This document shows, one piece after another, positions 1-63,310 of a stretch of 64,000 nt of DNA. Made by a program: the position numbers and the translations under genes. The notes beneath the pieces were generated by a model that saw nothing but the letters and a program-made list of their open reading frames with translations, was not told where the DNA came from and did not search any database. Source of the stretch: Naegleria gruberi (Eukaryota); assembly GCA_000004985.1 (NCBI GenBank), contig GG738856.1; one strand, 5' to 3'. The stretch's first letter is position 1. Each line of letters opens with the position of its first letter.

Positions 1-477
1 CCAAACCCAAACCCAAACCCAAACCCAAACCCAAACCCAAACCCAAACCCAAACCCAAACCCAAACCCAAACCCAAACCCAAACCCAAACCCAAACCCAA
101 ACCCAAACCCAAACCCAAACCCAAACCCAAACCCAAACCCAAACCCAAACCCAAACCCAAACCCAAACCCAAACCCAAACCCAAACCCAAACCCAAACCC
201 AAACCCAAACCCAAACCCAAACCCAAACCCAAACCCAAACCCAAACCCAAACCCAAACCCAAACCCAAACCCAAACCCAAACCCAAACCCAAACCCAAAC
301 CCAAACCCAAACCCAAACCCAAACCCAAACCCAAACCCAAACCCAAACCCAAACCCAAACCCAACCCAAACCCAAACCCAAACCCAAACCCAAACCCAAA
401 CCCAAACCCAAACCCAAACCCAAACCCAAACCCAAACCCAAACCCAAACCCAAACCCAAACCCAAACCCAAACCCAA
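1..477. repeat. Telomeric repeat array (CCCAAA)n, about 79 units, TTTGGG on the G-strand, with one degenerate unit near 361-366; this is the chromosome terminus
   Basis: A perfect 6-nt periodicity runs from base 1 and ends abruptly at about 477, where unique sequence begins. One unit near 361 lacks an A. Confidence 0.95.
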
Positions 478-925
478 TTGGTGAATATTTTAAAACAATT
501 GTATTTTGAAGATACACTAATTACTGTAGATGGCATGAAAGAGTTCATTCACCAAGCTGAATCACATAAGAAAGTGGTATGGCTTTATTCGATTGGATAT
601 TTTTTAAGTATGGAAGGGAATAATGAAGAAAGTTTGGAATATTATAAAATGGCAGCCGAGTTGGGAGATGTAGATTCATTCTATGAACTGGGCGTAGCGT
701 ATAGCATGCAAGATATTGAGCAGAGTAAATATTGGCATGAGAAAGCTGTTAAACAAGGACATCAAAATGCTACAGCTTCTCTTGCAGAGATTTATCTTAA
801 AAAGGGAGATTATAAGCAAGCTTTTGAGTTTTTTTCACAAGCAGCTGAAAAAGGATGTGCTTATTCAATGAAAAATATTGCGTTCATGTATGAAAATGGA
901 CAATATGTAGATCAAGATTATTCAA
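476..925 (+). pseudogene. Truncated, telomere-capped duplicate of an internal segment of the F-box-like/Sel1-repeat gene, about 99% identical to about 1656-2105
   Basis: 478-925 aligns base for base with 1658-2105 with about 4 substitutions. It has no start codon and no upstream part of the gene. The telomere array joins directly at a shared aattggtg. The track ORF 478..1068 reads through the N gap. Confidence 0.85.
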
Positions 926-975
926 NNNNNNNNNNNNNNNNNNNNNNNNNNNNNNNNNNNNNNNNNNNNNNNNNN
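926..975. other. Assembly gap of 50 N
   Basis: A run of n characters. Confidence 0.99.
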
Positions 976-1211
976 AGATCAGTCCCTGAAACACATCAAC
1001 AAACGAAATTAAAGGAACAGGAGCCAAGTAATAGCTTTTCTATAAACAACGGTAATAAATATTTTTAAAAAATAAGCTGTGGTTGCTGAGTTTTTTAAAC
1101 CATAATTTATTTTATTTTATTTTTTCAGTAACGCTCGGACATCAACATTGGTCCCCCCTGGAAGAATGTTGTTCAAATAACCAAGAAAAAGCGGAAACAA
1201 TATTGTAAAAA

Positions 1212-3134
1212 ATGTTCCAACAAGTTCTTGTTAAAGGTCATCAACTGTTCGGGAACATTAAAAAAAATACCTCTAATTACATGATGAGCCATTTCACACA
1301 ACTGCCAGAAGAAATTATTGTGGAAATTTATAAATATGTATCCCATTCGGATATCATCCACAAAATGTCAAAAGTAGCTTCTGAGTGGAGAAGTGCTGTT
1401 TTTAAAGTAAAATCATTGGAACTTTTAGTTTCCGATAGAAAATTCACAACCGAAACATTACATTCTATATTTTACAGTCCACTTTTAAGTAATGTAGTTC
1501 TACTCTCTTTGGAAAATTGTGGATTGACTGATTCTGATATTAAAATGCTATGTGAAAGTTGTAATGACGGAAATTTTAGAAATTTAAAAGATTTATTGAT
1601 TGGAAGCAATCCTATTTCAATCAATTCGGTTATTGCCATTCATAATAGTGAATTGGTGAATATTTTAAAACAATTGTATTTTGAAGATACACTAATTACT
1701 GTAGATGGCATGAAAGAGTTCATTCATCAAGCTGAATCACATAAGAAAGTGGTATGGCTTTATTCGATTGGATATTTTTTAAGTATGGAAGGGAATAATG
1801 AAGAAAGTTTGGAATATTATAAAATGGCAGCCGAGTTGGGAGATGTAGATTCATTCTATGAACTGGGCGTAGCGTATAGCATGCAAGATATTGAGCAGAG
1901 TAAATATTGGCATGAAAAAGCTGTTAAACAAGGACATCAAAATGCTACAGCTTCTCTTGCAGAGATTTATCTTAAAAAGGGAGATTATAAGCAAGCTTTT
2001 GAGTTTTTTTCACAAGCAGGTGAAAAAGGATGTGCTTATTCAATGAAAAATATTGCGTTCATGTATGAAAATGGACAATATGTAGAACAAGATTATTCAA
2101 AATCAAAGAAATGGCTTCTGAAATCAACTGCATTTGGAGATATAGCTTTACACGAGTTGGGAATGAGATATTTGAATGGTAGCTTTGGATTTGAAAAAAA
2201 TTTGCAGAAAGCCATTAGATACTTTCAATCCCAATACCATCCAAGTGAGTCAAGCTATCAACTGGCACTCATGTATTTGGAAGGTAATGAATATATTCAA
2301 AAAGATGCTTTGAAAGCAATTGAAATATTGGAAAAAGCTTATGATACGAATGCAGCATTGCTACTAGGATCAATATATGCTAAGGGAGTCGAAGGAGTAG
2401 TTCCAAAAGATATTAAAAAGGCAATTGAAGCCTATTACAGAGCCTATAATAATCCAGAAGGAGCCCTACAGATTGGAATATTATATTTGGAAAAGTTCAA
2501 AACAGAGGAATCATATTTCCATTATATGGCTAAAGGAAAATTTGAAGAAGCAGCCAATGCAGGATCGGTAGAAGCCATGTTTAGGTTAGCAGAGCTTTTG
2601 AAAACAACTTTCAAAGATTTAGATGAATCAGACCGAAATTACTCTATGGCAGCTAGTAACAATCATGTTATAGCTCAATATCAACTAGCTCTGTATCACA
2701 AAGAGGGTATTAGAAATTTTGAGAAGAATCCTGAAAAGGCTAAATATTATTTTGAACAAGCAGCTAATCAAGGACATTCTGGAGCACAATATGAGTTGGC
2801 TGTAATATTATCCCCAGAAAATTACGAACAATCTTTAAAACTATTGAATTTGTCAATTGAGCAAGGCAACAGTTTTGCAATGGACATGTTGGCAAAATGG
2901 TACTTAAAAGGCACTGGTGTGGGAAAAGATGAAAAGAGAGCTGTCGAATTATTAGAAAAGTCATGTGAAATTGGAGGTTGCTCCAATAGCTATTATGAAC
3001 TCTCCTTACTTTATGAAGCTGGATTAGGTTGTGAGGTCAATAAGGAAAGAGCTGCAGAATTGAAAGGAAAGGCAATTGAATTGGGAGAAGCGAGATCTCT
3101 AATTGATCAATTCTTCTTTTTCGAAGATGCTTAA
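1212..3134 (+). CDS. F-box-like, LRR and Sel1-like repeat (SLR) protein, 640 aa
   Basis: The N-terminus LPEEIIVEIYKYV...WRSAV is F-box-like. There are at least 10 Sel1-type repeats of the form A..Y..AA..G...A...LG..Y..G. The ORF is continuous. Confidence 0.8.
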   Translation: MFQQVLVKGHQLFGNIKKNTSNYMMSHFTQLPEEIIVEIYKYVSHSDIIHKMSKVASEWRSAVFKVKSLELLVSDRKFTTETLHSIFYSPLLSNVVLLSLENCGLTDSDIKMLCESCNDGNFRNLKDLLIGSNPISINSVIAIHNSELVNILKQLYFEDTLITVDGMKEFIHQAESHKKVVWLYSIGYFLSMEGNNEESLEYYKMAAELGDVDSFYELGVAYSMQDIEQSKYWHEKAVKQGHQNATASLAEIYLKKGDYKQAFEFFSQAGEKGCAYSMKNIAFMYENGQYVEQDYSKSKKWLLKSTAFGDIALHELGMRYLNGSFGFEKNLQKAIRYFQSQYHPSESSYQLALMYLEGNEYIQKDALKAIEILEKAYDTNAALLLGSIYAKGVEGVVPKDIKKAIEAYYRAYNNPEGALQIGILYLEKFKTEESYFHYMAKGKFEEAANAGSVEAMFRLAELLKTTFKDLDESDRNYSMAASNNHVIAQYQLALYHKEGIRNFEKNPEKAKYYFEQAANQGHSGAQYELAVILSPENYEQSLKLLNLSIEQGNSFAMDMLAKWYLKGTGVGKDEKRAVELLEKSCEIGGCSNSYYELSLLYEAGLGCEVNKERAAELKGKAIELGEARSLIDQFFFFEDA

Positions 3135-24408: not shown

Positions 24409-27400
24409 ATGATGAGGAAACAAGAAAGTTTGATTAAAAAAACAGGGAATTTTGGTGATTTTTCTAATGCTGCCACAGCATCTATATCGGAAAATTCGGG
24501 ACAGAGGATGACACCTAGCCAATCGAAGGTTTATCCAAGTTTAATGGCAAGGAGTTCACCATTATCTTCATCTCCATACTGTTCTTCCAAATCATCAACA
24601 TCTGCATCCTGTAAATTATCCAATCAAATCACCAACACAAACAAGAATGTAAATAATCAAGATTCTGAAAATCAACAACAAAAAAGTATTGAAAGTGTAA
24701 AAAGTTCTTTTCACACTAGAACTCATTCAATACTTTCCCCTCAATGTAAAAACATTCAACCATCACAGTCAACTAGCTCATCAAAAACAAATGAAGGAAC
24801 AGTAACAAAACATGTAAAGTTTGTTATTCCAGAACGTAAAATTCCAAAACCAGAAACAAAAAAGGATATAACAACTACAGTTCCAAAGTTGGCAAGGGAA
24901 AAACAAAATCATCGTTACAATATTAATTTTTTTAATAGACCAACAATAACTCGAGATGGTCAAACAGTTCAACCTCCCCAAACCACTCAACCTTCTCCTT
25001 CATCTTTACAAAATAAGAGAAGTTTTGAAAATTTCAAATCTAGCTCTTCAAAATACGAGACATCAAAAAAACAAAAGAAAGACATCAATATGATAAACTT
25101 TCAAAAGAATTTATTTGAAATTCAGAAAGAGTTGTCAGAACAACCTTTCATCTCAAATGCCAACCCACTGACACCATCTCCAGAAAGCAATGGTCACTCA
25201 TCAGTATTTAACAACAACAATACTGTTCAGAAGGAGGAAAATCTCAAAATGCAAACCCCTCAATACTCTAACACCAATTTCATGATACTATCAGACTCTC
25301 TAGAAAGTATTACTATAGCAGAGGATTTATTAACTATCGACGATTCAATAGTGGAAGAAGCTATAAGCAAGGTCTTTAATTCAAAGCTTGGAAGATCTTT
25401 TTCATCAAGTACCAAAGAGAAGTACCTTCGTCATCTAATCAATCCCGAGGAAATTTCAAGGCTGGGAATTAAAGATTTATTTGGAGAATATTACCCCTCA
25501 GTGGGATATTTTACATTGAAAGATTCCAAGCCAATTTTCAAGCAAGTCAGCGATGGTTCTTTGACAAACATTACTGAAGGAACAGGGAAATCAATATATT
25601 ACTCCTACTCTAGATTAGCAAGATTGTTAATGAGTTTGGATTTAGGACGAGCCATGATGTTTGTCATCTTTTCTGAAGATGATTGGGATCATGAGGAAAA
25701 ACGAGTTTTAATTGAAAAAGCTTCTATAGATGGATTTAAGCATTCCTCTATCGAGTACAAATTCTTTGGTACAAGTAATTCTGGTATTAATGGGCATACA
25801 GCTCTGTTCATTGACACTCGATTGAATTTTGCTAAAATACATGACCTGCTGGGAGATTTTAGTGAGTGTGCCAAAGCTGGACCAAGGAAAGCTTTCAGTC
25901 GTATTGCTCTTGCATTAGGAAAAAGTTTTCAGAGTTTAGTCGAGTTGAAAAAGGAAGAATTATGGGTTCTGTACGATGAAGAGGATTATCCAGGTGTTGG
26001 TATGTTTTTTATTTCATGAAATTCAATAATTCTTACTTGAAAAGATGGTGCAGGCTTCATGCATGAGGATTACTTTCAAGATATTTTGAGAAATACAATT
26101 TGCACACCTTATTTTGAAACAAGGAAAAACACAACTGAAGCAGTATTTATGGATTGTAAAATTGAGGAAATTGTTGCAATGCAATTCAGAGCATTGGGAA
26201 TGAAGGGCGTCTTTCAGTCTATTCCCGATGAATATTGGAAGGAACTTCAAACGAGGCATGGCTTTCCAGATACTGTAAAATGCGTGGCAAGACCTTCAAT
26301 GATCAAATTTATGGGAAATTCGGAAGTTTATAGACATTTTGATGTTTTAAATGTTTCTAGAATTCAAGGAGGATCCATTAATAGAACATTCATGTCATGT
26401 ATGCTTAGAAGAACAACTAATAAGGAGGCCATGCAACAACTTTTCGTTAAAATGTTGGATGAGTACATCAAGAGTGAATCCAATATTCTAGATACAAAAT
26501 TCCTCTACAACTCTCTCCTTTCGAATGAAGTTTTCGATAATGGAGATTCCGTTTATAGGACAATCAAGAATTTACTCTTGGCAGGATTTGGAATGGAAAA
26601 TCCATTTGTTTACAAGTACATTAAGAAGAGAATCAAGGCAAGATTTCAATCCATGATTGATAACAAGCTGTGTCTCAAGATGAAATCAAAATTCTCAGTA
26701 ACTCTGATGGGAGTCATAGATGAGAGTGGTGAGCTAAATGCGGATGAGGTTTATATTCCCTGCCTCAAATTGCAAGAGCAATTAATGAGGGATTATTACA
26801 AATTGAAAGAGGTGATTGTCTATAGACATCCACTTGCTTACGAAGGAGATATTGCCAAGTTGAAATTGAGAAAAGATCCATGTAATGAATTTCTAGCATC
26901 TAGATCTAATGTCATTGTATTCCCAAAGGTTTTCAAAGAGAAATCTCCTCATCAATATCTAGCAGGAGGTGATTTAGGTATGTTTTTATTTTGAATTTTT
27001 CAAATTGACTCAATTCTTTAGATGGTGATGCTTATGAAGTTGTTTTTGATATGGAAATTTTGAAATTATTCGATAAGCATCCAAAACCAATTGATTACGA
27101 TGAAGGGAAGCAATCCAGTGGAGCAACCTCACAATCTATTCAACCTGTTACCAAGTTACAACCTTGTGATATTATCAGGGAACATGTAAAATGTTTTATT
27201 CAAAAACATACTCATACAGGTCTCCTTTTCTACTTTAATACTATTGCCAGAGACTCTGACGATATCAAATTAAAGGTTGATCTAGCCAAAGCATATTCCC
27301 ATTCTATAGATGCTATGAAGGGCTTTGAGCAGGATTTTAACAAACTCATTGAAAGAGCACGAGCTTTACCAGTTCCATACTGGTATCAACAATGGAAGTC

Positions 27401-27887
27401 GGTAAAGGTTTCAAAATGGGCACCAACTGATGCAAACATTACAATATTTGAAAATTTAATGTTAAATAAGGTTGTACATGCCTATCAGAAAATTGAATTT
27501 AAAAAGCCAGTAGAGATTGATCCTGAATTAATTGTTGAAACGCCAAAGGACACAGTCATGTGGAAGCTTGATTTTGATAACACGTATCAAAAATGGAACG
27601 AGTATTGGAAATCTAAAAAGAGAGTATTCGAGTCAACAACACAAGTAGAATTTACATTCAATGATAGATTCTTCAATGAACGGCTCAATTCAATTATGGC
27701 CAACACGATCTCTCACCAAAAGAACAAGTACCATAGCGATGAACCAGATTGGCACCAATTATTTTGTGGAAGTACTGTTGGAAAACAACTCGTAGCAAAA
27801 GCAAGTTATTGGATGCAACTTGCCTACGAGAAGGAAAAGGAACTTGCACAAAAGAAAAGAAGGGAGAGTTCAAGAAATCAATTCTAA
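24409..27887 (+). CDS. RNA-dependent RNA polymerase (eukaryotic RDR/QDE-1 family) with three exons and a low-complexity N-terminal region
   Basis: ORFs 24409..26019, 26059..26994 and 27051..27887 are colinear. They are separated by GTATGT...AG introns of about 45-50 nt near 26000-26044 and 26978-27021. Splicing the second intron reconstitutes the catalytic motif YLAGGDL|DGDAYEVVF (DLDGD). Confidence 0.85.
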
Positions 27888-35002: not shown

Positions 35003-35122
35003 GGCTACGGCCATATCACGATGAATGCACCTCATCCCGTCCGATTTGAGAAGTTAAGCATCGTCGAGCCACATCAGTACTGAGGTTGGAGACAACTTGG
35101 GAACCTGTGGTGCTGTAGTCTT
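35003..35122 (+). rRNA. 5S ribosomal RNA gene
   Basis: GGCTACGGCCATATCACG...GTCCGATTTGAGAAGTTAAGCATCGTCGAGCC...GGGAACCTGTGGTGCTGTAGTC is colinear with the eukaryotic 5S consensus over about 120 nt. TTTTTT follows immediately, a Pol III terminator. Confidence 0.9.
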
Positions 35123-51077: not shown

Positions 51078-51539
51078 TTATTGTTCAGAATTCAAAGGAA
51101 CGTGGGTTTCCTTAGTTTCGACGTGCTTCAATTGAACGTTGGCGTTCAACAATTCATCTTGGAGAGTCTTCTTCTTTTCACCAGTTTCCTTCTTGGCTTC
51201 TTGATTGGCTTCGAATTCCTTTTCCTTTTGAATCAATTCATCGAGGACTGAACCTTGCAACTTTTCCTTGGTTTGCTTCTTAGCTTCAACAGTAGCTTCG
51301 AATTGTTTTTCCTTTTCTTTCAATTCATCGAGGACTGAACCTTGCAACAATTCTTTAGTTTGTTTCTTGGCTTCTTGATTGGCTTCGAATTCCTTTTCTT
51401 TTTCCTTCAATTCATCAAGGACAGTTCCTTGCAACTTTTCCTTGGTTTGCTTCTTGGCTTCAATGGTAGCTTCGAATTGTTTTTCCTTTTCCAAGACTTC
51501 TTTCAAGACGGCAGTTGGGACTTGTGGTTGTTCAGACAT
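51078..51539 (-). CDS. Short tandem-repeat protein of about 154 aa ending in a beta-thymosin/actobindin-like motif (LKHVETKE); candidate actin-monomer-binding protein
   Basis: The true start is probably the internal ATG at 51539 (MSEQPQV...). Three to four near-identical repeats of about 36 aa are repeated at nucleotide level. The C-terminal LKHVETKETHVP matches thymosin LKKTETQEKNPLP and actobindin LKHAETVDK. Confidence 0.45.
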   Translation of the reverse strand: MSEQPQVPTAVLKEVLEKEKQFEATIEAKKQTKEKLQGTVLDELKEKEKEFEANQEAKKQTKELLQGSVLDELKEKEKQFEATVEAKKQTKEKLQGSVLDELIQKEKEFEANQEAKKETGEKKKTLQDELLNANVQLKHVETKETHVPLNSEQ

Positions 51540-51864
51540 TTTTTTGTAAGAGTTGATTGGTTTATTGTTGTATGAAGCATCAAGTATATTAAGCTTGATC
51601 TCGTCAACAATGATCAAAGAAAAGGCCTCTTGAGACAGAGGTTGACAGACAAGCAAGAGGTGACGTGCAACTACAATTTGATTGACAAACAACATACCTA
51701 TCAATCATGAAGCAACAATGACATGATGATGTGAAGACTTGTAATGGATAAAACAGTACACCTCTACGATTTTTTTTCACAAACTGTAGAACTATGGAAG
51801 AATATGATGTGAGATAATTAAACATTTTGAAAAAAGATTTTGAAATGGTTAAAGGGTTAATAAT

Positions 51865-56835: not shown

Positions 56836-56954
56836 TGGCCACGTAGCTTAATTGGAAAAGCAGAACAAATGGTTTCAGTACTGAAACTTAACTGCAGTAA
56901 AAAATTCGCATTTCATTCGTAGAAAAAGATGTGGGTTCGAGCCCCACCGTGGTC
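56836..56954 (+). tRNA. tRNA-like gene, probably an intron-containing tRNA; isotype undetermined
   Basis: Acceptor stem GGCCACG/CGTGGTC with one G-U pair. D-arm GCTT-AATTGGAA-AAGC. T-arm GTGGG-TTCGAGC-CCCAC. Discriminator G, then ATTTTTT. The 68 nt between the D and T arms are too long for a mature tRNA and I could not fold a canonical anticodon stem. Confidence 0.5.
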
Positions 56955-57161
56955 GATTTTTTCATTCCACTTTTTCTATATTTCAAATTTCTTTTTCTTC
57001 CAATTTACGTTGTTCTAAATTGAGTTATCGAGAACGAGTTGTGATGTTCTTTTTTACTTTCTCCCTCCATACTTTGTACCATAAATGGTAGCTTGTAGCA
57101 GCAATTATGTGAATTAAAATTGTAATACTCTTGAAAAATAAATAAATTTTTTTGAGGAATA

Positions 57162-62108: not shown

Positions 62109-63310
62109 TTAATTGTTATCGTGTGTAATTTGAGTATTCATTTCGTCAATGGTATTTGCGTCCTTTTTTGCTTGGCCTTTTTTACTTGAAGAAACAGAGA
62201 GAATCATTAATTTCATATTACTAACAGCTCTAACTCCTTCATCAGATAAATTGTTCTCACCAATATCAAGATTGGTCAATTTGCTCATCTCACTAACGCA
62301 TTTAGCTCCAATGTCAGAAATATCACAGTTGAAAAGTTCAAGTGTAGTCAATTGTTTCATATCACTAATAAATTTAGCTCCTTCATCACCAAATTGATTC
62401 CAAGCAATGTTAAGGTCAGTTAACTGTTTCATTTCGCTGATTTTTTGAGCTCCAATAGGGTCAATGTTACAACTATTTATATCAAGAATACGTAATTGAT
62501 TCATTCCACTGATATATTCAGATCCTTTGTGACGAATATTATTGTTGCTAATATCGAGATCAGTTAATTGTTTCATTTCAAGAATATGTTTGACACCTTC
62601 ATCACCAATATTATTTTCACCAATATTAAGACGTGTCAATTGTTTCAATTCAGATAAATGTTTTGTTCCAACATCACCAATATTGTTGAAATGAATAGAG
62701 AGTTCAGTTAATTGTTTCAATCCACTAATAAATTTAGCACCTTCTTCTTGAATATTGTTATTGTTAATTTCAAGATTGGTCAATTGTTTCATTTCACTGA
62801 TATATTTAGTCCCTTCTTTACCTAGATTGTTCAATCCAACACTGAGAGTGGTTATTCTTTTCATTTTGCTTATATGATTGGCTCCATTTGCTACAATATC
62901 ATTGCCATGAATATCGAGAATAGTTAAATTATCTAGTTCACTAATATACTTGGCTCCTTCCTCACCAATCCAATTTCTCGAAATATTTAAACTTGTTAAA
63001 TTATGTTTCATTTCTAGAATATCCTGAACTTGTTGTAAATTAATACAACTTTCAACACTGAGAATTCTCAATCCTTTCATCAATCTAAATATTTTACAAT
63101 CAAAATTTTCATCCGGATGAAAAAATTTCTATTCACTTGCAGAGTTTCAATATTTTCCAAAAATTCACCTTTCAATTTCTGGTCATTCTCACAAATAAAT
63201 AAAAGTTTAGATAGTTCCCGCACAACAGCAAACCACTGTTTCGAAACTAATGCACAACTCACCACTGAAAATTTAAACTCATTACAAAAAGATAAAATCT
63301 CCGAAAGCAC
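62109..63310 (-). CDS. Protein with an F-box-like N-terminus and 24-residue LRRs, a paralog of 33851..34867; frame break or micro-intron at about 63080
   Basis: ORF 63080..63310 (LSEILSFCNEF...LVSKQWFAVV) and ORF 62109..63083 (about 12 LRRs, L.QLT.L.I..NNI.DEGAK.IS.MK) are adjacent in different frames. A ttag acceptor sits at the junction. Confidence 0.65.

What the first reader, a model, noticed from the sequence alone, without database searches (positions are those of the whole stretch)
1..975. Telomere array joined directly to an internal fragment of the neighbouring gene
The (CCCAAA)n array ends at 477 and continues, through a shared aattggtg, into a 448-bp copy of the middle of the Sel1-repeat gene (478-925, matching 1658-2105 with about 4 mismatches). 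There is no 5' part of the gene and no subtelomeric repeat in between. This fits de novo telomere addition at a break inside a duplicated gene copy (chromosome healing), or an assembly join. The 50-N gap at 926-975 leaves the internal side unresolved. The TTTGGG repeat combined with a standard genetic code is itself taxonomically informative.
Basis: seen in the sequence. Interest (0 to 1): 0.55.

Follow-up and report, generated by a model that had tools for sequence, protein, structure and literature searches.

The report
Telomere fused to truncated Naegleria gene
At the end of a Naegleria gruberi draft scaffold, telomere repeats run straight into the middle of a gene, which looks like a broken chromosome capped with a new telomere, but the apparent second gene copy is probably another version of the same end placed alongside by the assembler.

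Summary
(CCCAAA)n fills 1-477. Bases 478-925 repeat the interior of the neighbouring F-box/Sel1 gene with 4 substitutions in 450 bp. The true partner is 1653-2100, not 1658-2105. A 50-N gap follows at 926-975.

The window is Naegleria gruberi NEG-M: the gene product is 100% identical to XP_002679648.1, from the 2010 Sanger draft. TTTGGG was already published as this species' candidate telomere in 2013.

The junction has the usual marks of telomerase "healing" of a broken end. The repeat orientation is correct, there is no subtelomeric repeat, and the repeats abut coding sequence with a 2-nt overlap. That overlap is not significant (chance about 0.28).

My best reading (about 0.5): one chromosome copy is truncated inside the gene and capped. 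The read-length contig carrying that junction is an alternative version of 1653-2100. A scaffolder placed it in series behind a placeholder gap, so the "duplicated gene copy" is probably not in cis.

Rivals are a real second copy (about 0.2) and a chimeric clone or read (about 0.15). No independent Naegleria reads were reachable, so none is settled. Existing nanopore data would decide.

This is a known kind of event in a lineage where it has not been described. Interest is low to moderate.

The parts
1..477 (-). Telomere repeat array, (TTTGGG)n on the minus strand and (CCCAAA)n on the plus strand. The G-rich strand runs 5'->3' towards the left end, as expected for a left chromosome terminus. 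There is one TTGGG variant unit at 360-364.
   Evidence: TTTGGG as the candidate N. gruberi telomere in PMC3622300
476..477 (.). Junction overlap. The two bases AA (TT on the G strand) belong both to the last telomere unit and to the gene sequence. G strand: ...CACCAATT|GGGTTTGGG. Intact gene: ...CACCAATT|CACTATT.
   Evidence: an in-register overlap of 2 nt or more occurs at 28% of random window positions, so it is compatible with telomerase priming but not diagnostic
478..925 (+). Promoterless internal fragment of the F-box/Sel1 gene. It corresponds to residues 97-245 of XP_002679648.1 and is in frame. It lacks the F-box and leucine-rich N-terminal part. It differs from 1653-2100 at 552, 741, 845 and 912.
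   Evidence: (Sel1 Pfam hit, E 4.8e-14)
926..975 (.). Scaffold gap of exactly 50 N and the only gap in the window. It is probably a placeholder rather than a measured distance (inference).
976..1068 (+). Left end of the main contig. A reading frame is open to the contig edge for 30 codons, with a stop at 1066-1068 and a weakly positive codon-usage score. It may be the 3' end of a further upstream gene, which would mean the untruncated chromosome version continues leftwards.
   Evidence: weak evidence
1212..3134 (+). Intact F-box / leucine-rich / Sel1-repeat gene. The ORF is 1212-3134. The annotated product XP_002679648.1 (EFC46904.1, 589 aa) corresponds to 1365-3134 with no intron. The F-box motif lies at residues 29-68 of the ORF and starts upstream of the annotated start codon.
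1651..2100 (+). Parent segment of the fragment. The telomere addition point corresponds to the 1652|1653 boundary, between codons (phase 0), after residue 96 of the annotated protein.

Best explanation
This is the left end of a Naegleria gruberi NEG-M chromosome as represented in the 2010 Sanger draft.

One copy of this chromosome end suffered a double-strand break, or terminal erosion, inside the F-box/Sel1 gene. That copy is a homologue in a heterozygous diploid or aneuploid clone, or a high-frequency subclone. Telomerase primed on the 3' end ...CACCAATT-3', with the TT annealed to the template, and added GGGTTTGGG... This capped the chromosome at the position equivalent to 1652|1653 and deleted everything distal to it.

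The other copy is intact and gives the main contig, which starts at 976.

Shotgun reads that start in the new telomere and run about 450 bp into the gene could not be merged with the main contig, because their telomeric half conflicts with 976-1652. They therefore formed a read-length contig (1-925). Their mate pairs lie further along the same gene region. The scaffolder therefore placed this contig to the left of the main contig, with a minimum placeholder gap of 50 N where the true 'gap' is negative (about -1.1 kb).

On this reading the telomere-to-gene junction is real, but the apparent tandem partial duplication is not. The four differences are allelic SNPs, possibly with read-tail errors among them.

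Shown: the sequence anatomy, the organism, and that the repeat is this species' previously reported candidate telomere repeat. Inferred: telomerase action, the allelic or subclonal status, and the scaffolder's behaviour.
For: 1. The organism is N. gruberi NEG-M: the gene product is 100% identical to XP_002679648.1 on a 602,266-bp scaffold. The assembly is Sanger-based, 40.9 Mb in 1,977 pieces (Table 1 of PMC9928731).
2. TTTGGG is the candidate telomere of this species (PMC3622300). The array is 477 bp, nearly perfect, unique in the window and in the orientation a left terminus requires.
3. The repeats abut the interior of a coding region directly, with nothing in between. The intact parent sequence lies 1175 bp away. 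These are the hallmarks used to call healing events in P. falciparum, where the first added bases are also GGGTT (PMC5550746).
4. No second close copy of the gene exists in a 5.8-billion-protein database. The next hit is 24% identical, and the cluster has one member on one contig.
5. Divergence is 4/450 = 0.9%, substitutions only, half of them synonymous. Naegleria is described as mainly a heterozygous diploid with frequent aneuploidy and loss of heterozygosity (PMC9928731).
6. The telomere contig is 925 bp, about one Sanger read. The gap is a round 50 N.
7. The main contig starts only 677 bp beyond the junction site. With about one contig end per 21 kb genome-wide (1,977 pieces in 40.9 Mb), that proximity has roughly a 3% chance. 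The contig break and the telomere junction are therefore probably connected, as expected at a true chromosome end or an assembly fork.
Against: - No read-level or independent assembly data could be reached, so the allelic status is an inference.
- The 2-nt junction overlap is not better than chance (P about 0.28).
- The sequence next to the addition site is not TG-rich.
- If the intact homologue continues beyond 976, the model does not by itself explain why the main contig stops there. It needs reduced coverage near an end or a scaffolding conflict.
- The meaning of a 50-N gap in this assembly was not verified.
- The mismatch spacing (552, 741, 845, 912) tightens towards the contig end. That would also fit read-tail errors in a single read, so the 'SNPs' may not be SNPs.
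- The window starts inside the array, so its terminal position in the record is assumed.
Confidence: 0.5

Rival explanations
1. There is a real second copy. A recent segmental duplication placed a partial copy of the Sel1 gene distal to the intact gene on the same chromosome, or at another chromosome end. The break and telomere addition happened inside that copy. The remainder of the copy lies in the gap or was collapsed onto the intact gene by the assembler.
For: - The assembly as written shows two copies 1175 bp apart, with 4 fixed differences.
- If the duplicated unit began at 976, the main contig would be expected to break exactly at the repeat boundary. That would explain why it starts only 677 bp from the junction site (reasoning and figures).
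- Chromosome ends are duplication-prone in many eukaryotes (general knowledge).
Against: - It needs two rare events, a duplication and then a break inside the new copy, where one suffices.
- No second copy or fragment of this protein is annotated or clustered anywhere.
- If the gap really were about 50 bp, reads starting in the telomere would have bridged it and no gap would remain.
- Nothing else in the first 64 kb is duplicated.
Confidence: 0.2
2. It is a laboratory or assembly artefact. A chimeric plasmid insert, or a chimeric or mis-trimmed read, joined telomeric DNA from elsewhere to a fragment of the Sel1 gene. No such molecule exists in the cell.
For: - The contig is read-sized (925 bp), so it could rest on very few reads.
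- The mismatches crowd towards its 3' end, as read-tail errors would.
- The junction overlap is no better than chance.
- Chimeric inserts occur at the per-cent level in shotgun libraries (general knowledge).
Against: - A random chimera would put the repeats in the correct outward orientation only half the time.
- Its gene partner would lie within about 0.7 kb of a contig end, at the end of a 602-kb scaffold, only about 3% of the time.
- All differences are clean substitutions with no indels, and two are synonymous.
- An 8-bp shared string cannot have driven an assembler overlap, so the junction must exist inside at least one physical read.
Confidence: 0.15
3. The array is not terminal. It would be an interstitial telomere-like block, and the record continues to the left of the window.
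For: The window begins inside the array, so the left side is unseen. Internal telomere-repeat blocks are common in many genome assemblies (PMC3622300).
Against: - There are 477 bp of almost perfect repeats in the orientation of a left terminus.
- They are followed by a truncated gene rather than intergenic DNA.
- No other telomere-like sequence occurs in 64 kb.
- An interstitial block would still need an explanation for the gene fragment.
Confidence: 0.05

Closest known systems
Telomere healing (chromosome breakage plus de novo telomere addition) in Plasmodium falciparum. Examples: truncated var genes at five ends of the 3D7 reference, lsap2 truncation in culture, pfhrp2 deletions (PMC5550746; PMC11458181).
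   Same: - Telomere repeats are fused directly into a coding region, leaving a 5'-truncated pseudogene at the new end.
- Subtelomeric repeat elements are absent.
- A few bases at the junction can anneal to the telomerase template, and GGGTT are the first added bases.
- It arises spontaneously in long-cultured clonal lines.
   Different: - Blood-stage Plasmodium is haploid, so the healed end is the only version. Here an intact version of the same locus coexists, which is what confuses the assembly.
- The Plasmodium events were confirmed with long reads and induced breaks. Here nothing has been confirmed experimentally.
- The repeat is TTTGGG, not TT(T/C)AGGG.
De novo telomere addition at double-strand breaks in yeast and in human terminal deletions (general knowledge of the field; summarised in PMC5550746)
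   Same: The proposed mechanism is the same: resection, annealing of a short 3' stretch to the telomerase RNA template, then repeat synthesis, with loss of the distal segment.
   Different: Yeast strongly prefers TG-rich seed tracts. The sequence next to this junction (…AAAATATTCACCAATT) is not TG-rich. No telomerase or template RNA of Naegleria was examined here.
De novo telomere addition onto transgene arrays in the amoeba Acanthamoeba castellanii (PMC11995660)
   Same: [quoted passage not shown]
   Different: It belongs to a different supergroup (Amoebozoa versus Heterolobosea). The substrate there is introduced plasmid DNA, not a native chromosome.
Programmed chromosome fragmentation with telomere addition (ciliate macronuclei; Ascaris and other nematodes)
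   Same: Telomeres are added directly to unique sequence, sometimes at heterogeneous positions, so that different molecules end at different points.
   Different: Those systems are developmental, genome-wide and tied to germline/soma separation. Naegleria has no known nuclear dualism. There is one case here and no breakage motif was sought. Nothing in the data calls for a programmed process.
Alternative-haplotype contigs ('haplotigs') placed in series in draft assemblies of heterozygous genomes
   Same: A short contig nearly identical to the adjacent sequence, differing by sub-1% substitutions, separated from it by a nominal gap and creating a false tandem duplication.
   Different: The structural difference between the two versions here is a telomere, not an ordinary indel. 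The artefact therefore preserves a biologically meaningful junction.

Membership tests
Healed chromosome end (de novo telomere addition) | An array of the species' own telomere repeat, with the G-rich strand running 5'->3' towards the terminus | tested here: met
   (TTTGGG)n lies on the minus strand at 1-477. TTTGGG is reported as the N. gruberi candidate telomere (PMC3622300). The organism was identified.
Healed chromosome end (de novo telomere addition) | Repeats abut unique, non-subtelomeric sequence directly, typically inside or next to a gene, and the intact parental sequence is known | tested here: met
   The junction is at 477|478. The fragment equals 1653-2100 of the intact gene. No other repeat involves the end.
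Healed chromosome end (de novo telomere addition) | Short complementarity between the broken 3' end and the telomerase template at the addition point | tested here: inconclusive
   There is a 2-nt (TT) in-register overlap. An overlap of 2 nt or more is found at 28% of random positions in the window. The Naegleria telomerase RNA template is unknown.
Healed chromosome end (de novo telomere addition) | The junction exists on a physical chromosome end in the cell (multiple independent reads, Bal31 sensitivity, junction PCR) | not testable with these tools
   No N. gruberi reads or second assembly could be reached.
Healed chromosome end (de novo telomere addition) | The segment distal to the break is lost from that same molecule | not testable with these tools
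   This needs read depth or long reads across 976-1652.
Alternative-haplotype contig mis-scaffolded in series | A short contig nearly identical to a neighbouring stretch, with divergence in the range of allelic variation | tested here: met
   The contig is 925 bp. It has 4 substitutions in 450 bp (0.9%) and no indels. Naegleria is described as a heterozygous diploid (PMC9928731). The genome-wide heterozygosity figure for NEG-M could not be checked, because the Cell 2010 paper is not held.
Alternative-haplotype contig mis-scaffolded in series | The gap is a placeholder, and mate pairs imply overlap rather than distance | not testable with these tools
   The window has one gap of exactly 50 N. 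The assembler's gap convention and the mate-pair data were not available.
Alternative-haplotype contig mis-scaffolded in series | No true second copy exists elsewhere in the genome | tested here: inconclusive
   There is no close paralogue among the proteins (next hit 24% identity; cluster of one). However, a collapsed or unannotated fragment would be invisible to a protein search.
Programmed chromosome fragmentation (ciliate or nematode type) | Recurrent, developmentally regulated breakage at many sites, with a germline/soma distinction | not tested
   Only one end is visible. From general knowledge Naegleria has a single type of nucleus. I do not file the finding here.

The most novel reading that the evidence does not exclude
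Naegleria chromosome ends may carry no buffering subtelomeric repeats, with ordinary genes running right up to the telomere. Ends would then be repeatedly broken and re-capped by telomerase, so that homologues or subclones of one strain end at different points inside genes. This would make telomere healing a routine source of the chromosome-size variation seen between Naegleria strains. It would also be the first documented chromosome healing in Heterolobosea.
Probability: 0.1. Interest if true: 0.55.

Novelty: new member of a known kind. Interest (0 to 1): 0.25.

Why it matters
If the junction is real, it is a natural example of de novo telomere addition in Heterolobosea. I found no description of telomere biology in this lineage beyond the in-silico repeat motif. 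It would define a telomerase addition site and give a minimum telomere tract of about 0.5 kb. It would also show that a laboratory strain carries structurally different homologous chromosome ends.

Practically, it flags an error in a widely used reference. The first 975 bases of this scaffold probably do not lie where they are drawn, and the 'duplicate' Sel1 fragment should not be counted as a gene copy.

If it is an artefact, it matters only as an assembly correction.

Tried and rejected
**Other organisms**
- I first considered ciliates, because Paramecium mixes TTGGGG and TTTGGG.
- I also considered a compact genome such as a microsporidian or a giant virus, because long intron-free ORFs are densely packed.
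- All were rejected once Pfam showed G-alpha, GPS-motif receptor and cadherin-like genes and the Sel1 protein matched N. gruberi at 100%.

**Independent sequence**
- The look-up of encoding contigs has no record for the window ORF or for P0001.

**Literature**
- Searches for Naegleria telomeres, subtelomeres or healing returned only the 2013 in-silico TTTGGG report.
- One search was badly framed and one found nothing.
- The 2010 genome paper and the 2011 review are not held.
- The supplement of the telomere survey is not held.

**Sequence tests**
- The junction microhomology test is not significant.
- The coding score of the open frame at 976-1065 is only weakly positive.
- I checked whether the end of contig 1 (...GTAGATCAAGATTATTCAA) overlaps the start of contig 2 (AGATCAGTCCC...). 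They share only AGATCA, and contig 1 keeps following the gene afterwards. I treat this as coincidence.
- tRNA and Rfam scans found nothing near the end.

Full report
**What is in the sequence**

Bases 1-477 are a single hexamer array, 79.7 copies at 99% match. It consists of 77 perfect CCCAAA units, one CCCAA unit at 360-364 and a last CCCAA at 473-477. All 77 matches to (TTTGGG)3 with up to three mismatches lie in 1-478 on the minus strand, against 0.08 expected. There is no telomere-like sequence elsewhere in the 64 kb. The G-rich strand therefore runs 5'->3' towards the left edge, which is the orientation of a left chromosome terminus.

From 476 to 925 the sequence equals 1651-2100 at an offset of 1175, with four substitutions and no indel:
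- 552 C/T and 741 G/A are synonymous.
- 845 C/G changes Ala to Gly.
- 912 T/A changes Asp to Glu.

At that offset 323 of 448 bases mismatch. The only N run in the window is 926-975, exactly 50 N. The only long repeat that touches the end is this pair (family D2).

**The junction**

On the G strand the healed version reads ...AATATTCACCAATT|GGGTTTGGG. The intact gene reads ...AATATTCACCAATT|CACTATTATG. Only two bases (TT; AA at 476-477 on the plus strand) can be assigned to either side. I measured how often a random position in this window gives an in-register overlap of two or more bases with TTTGGG. The answer is 28%. The overlap is therefore compatible with telomerase priming but proves nothing. 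The flanking sequence is not TG-rich. The break falls between codons, after residue 96 of the annotated protein.

**Whose genome**

The ORF 1212-3134 has an F-box (residues 29-68) and Sel1 repeats (Pfam Sel1, E 3.8e-52). Its product is 100% identical to 'SEL1 repeat domain-containing protein [Naegleria gruberi]'. That protein is EFC46904.1 / XP_002679648.1, strain NEG-M, on a 602,266-bp record. The annotated 589-aa model corresponds exactly to 1365-3134, without an intron. The next best database hit is only 24% identical, and the cluster has a single member on a single contig. No close paralogue is therefore on record.

The NEG-M genome is a Sanger assembly of 40.9 Mb in 1,977 pieces (Table 1 of PMC9928731). 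TTTGGG was reported as the candidate telomere of N. gruberi from that same assembly in 2013 (PMC3622300). The taxonomic part of the finding is therefore correct but already known.

**Surroundings**

There is no subtelomeric repeat domain. Ordinary genes start within about 1 kb of the array:
- TPR, cadherin-like, GPS-motif receptor and G-alpha genes;
- sulphur transporter-like, RNA-dependent RNA polymerase, PCMT methyltransferase, phosphodiesterase, CLP1, FGGY kinase, CorA and LRR genes;
- a 5S rRNA gene and an intron-containing tRNA.

The main contig begins at 976, inside a frame that is open to the contig edge for 30 codons. That frame stops at 1066-1068 and has a weakly positive codon-usage score. 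It may be the tail of one more gene, in which case the untruncated version of the chromosome continues to the left. The evidence for this is weak.

**How I read it**

The junction has the features used elsewhere to call telomere healing. [quoted passage not shown] What needs explaining is why an intact copy of the same 450 bp lies 1.2 kb away.

Several observations bear on that:
- The telomere-bearing contig is 925 bp, about one Sanger read.
- The divergence of 0.9% is in the range of allelic differences. Naegleria is described as a mainly heterozygous diploid with aneuploidy and loss of heterozygosity (PMC9928731). My recollection is that the NEG-M genome paper reports heterozygosity of roughly half a per cent. 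I could not check this, because the paper is not held.
- No second copy is known.
- The gap is a round 50 N.

The most economical account is a single event. One chromosome copy broke inside the gene and was capped by telomerase. Reads that start in the new telomere share 450 bp with reads from the intact copy, but they conflict with them to the left of 1653. An overlap-layout assembler therefore leaves them as their own contig. Their mates lie 3-8 kb further into the same region, so a scaffolder puts the small contig to the left of the main one. The implied gap is negative (about -1.1 kb) and is written as a minimum placeholder. In this reading the junction is biological and the tandem duplication is not.

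**Weighing the rivals**

*A real second copy.* This could be in cis or at another chromosome end. It would explain neatly why the main contig starts at 976, if that were the boundary of the duplicated unit. It needs two rare events, however. If the gap were truly about 50 bp, telomere-anchored reads would have closed it.

*A chimeric clone or read.* This is possible because the contig may rest on very few reads and the mismatches crowd towards its 3' end (552, 741, 845, 912). But a random chimera would have the correct repeat orientation only half the time. Its gene partner would lie within 0.7 kb of a contig end only about 3% of the time, given one contig end per about 21 kb (1,977 pieces in 40.9 Mb). 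The differences are also clean substitutions. An 8-bp shared string cannot have produced an assembler join, so at least one physical read must contain the junction.

*An interstitial array.* I cannot exclude this, because the window begins inside the repeats. Nothing else suggests it.

My probabilities are:

| Explanation | Probability |
|---|---|
| Healed homologue plus scaffolding artefact | about 0.5 |
| Real second copy | about 0.2 |
| Chimera or artefact | about 0.15 |
| Interstitial array | about 0.05 |
| Unassigned | remainder |

**What could not be done**

No Naegleria reads or second assembly were reachable. The encoding-contig look-up has no record of this protein. The single metagenome scan found only a distant relative. 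A nanopore re-assembly of N. gruberi exists (methods of PMC12695648). Its reads would settle the matter in an afternoon, and the predictions are spelled out under the next steps.

**Comparison and novelty**

Mechanistically this works like telomere healing in Plasmodium, yeast and human terminal deletions. It also resembles the capping of foreign DNA ends in Acanthamoeba (PMC11995660).

Membership in the class 'healed chromosome end':
- Met: repeat identity, orientation and direct fusion to a gene interior.
- Inconclusive: template complementarity.
- Untestable here: physical terminality and loss of the distal segment.

I found no paper describing chromosome healing, subtelomere structure or telomerase in Naegleria. 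If real, it is a new member of a well-known kind, not a new kind. A specialist would not be surprised by either outcome. The practical value is a correction to a reference assembly and a ready-made assay for telomere addition in a little-studied lineage. Interest is 0.25.

Noticed in passing
window 360-364: The otherwise perfect telomere array contains a single five-base unit (CCCAA; TTGGG on the G strand), 113 bp from the junction. The junction unit itself has the same form. This could be telomerase slippage or a one-base read error.
   Followed up: partly
window 1212-1364: The annotated protein XP_002679648.1 starts at 1365. The ORF is open upstream to 1212 (Met codons at 1212 and 1281). The Pfam F-box match (residues 29-68 of the ORF, E 4e-4, at the gathering threshold) begins before the annotated start. 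The gene model is probably N-terminally short and misses the start of its F-box.
   Followed up: partly
window 976-1068: A reading frame is open to the left edge of the main contig (30 codons, stop at 1066-1068, weakly coding by codon usage). It may be the 3' end of a gene whose remainder lies outside this scaffold.
   Followed up: partly
window 909-925 and 976-982: The last bases of the telomere contig contain AGATCA. This hexamer is created by the 912 T/A difference; the gene has AGAACA. The main contig starts with AGATCAG. The shared hexamer contains GATC. I judged it a coincidence, because contig 1 keeps following the gene after it.
   Followed up: partly
window 35003-35121 (+): A full-length 5S rRNA gene (Rfam 105 bits) sits alone among protein-coding genes about 35 kb from the telomere.
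   Followed up: no
window 56837-56955 (+): Rfam finds a tRNA spanning 119 bases, which implies an intron of roughly 45 nt. ARAGORN reported no tRNA anywhere in the window.
   Followed up: no
window 24409-27887 (+): Three consecutive same-strand ORFs lie at 24409-26019, 26059-26994 and 27051-27887. The middle one matches the central part of the eukaryotic RNA-dependent RNA polymerase domain (profile positions 189-436 of 582). They are probably one RdRP gene interrupted by short introns or frameshifts.
   Followed up: no
window 51183-51491 and 62197-62963: There are two in-frame coding tandem repeats on the minus strand. One has an 87-bp period (3.6 copies) inside ORF 51078-51704. The other has a 72-bp period (10 copies, 24 aa) and is the leucine-rich-repeat array of ORF 62109-63083.
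   Followed up: no
window 1-64000: There is no subtelomeric repeat domain at this end. Unique, apparently ordinary genes (TPR, G-alpha, GPS-motif receptor, CLP1, CorA and others) begin within about 1 kb of the telomere array. GC content stays near 31-40% throughout.
   Followed up: partly
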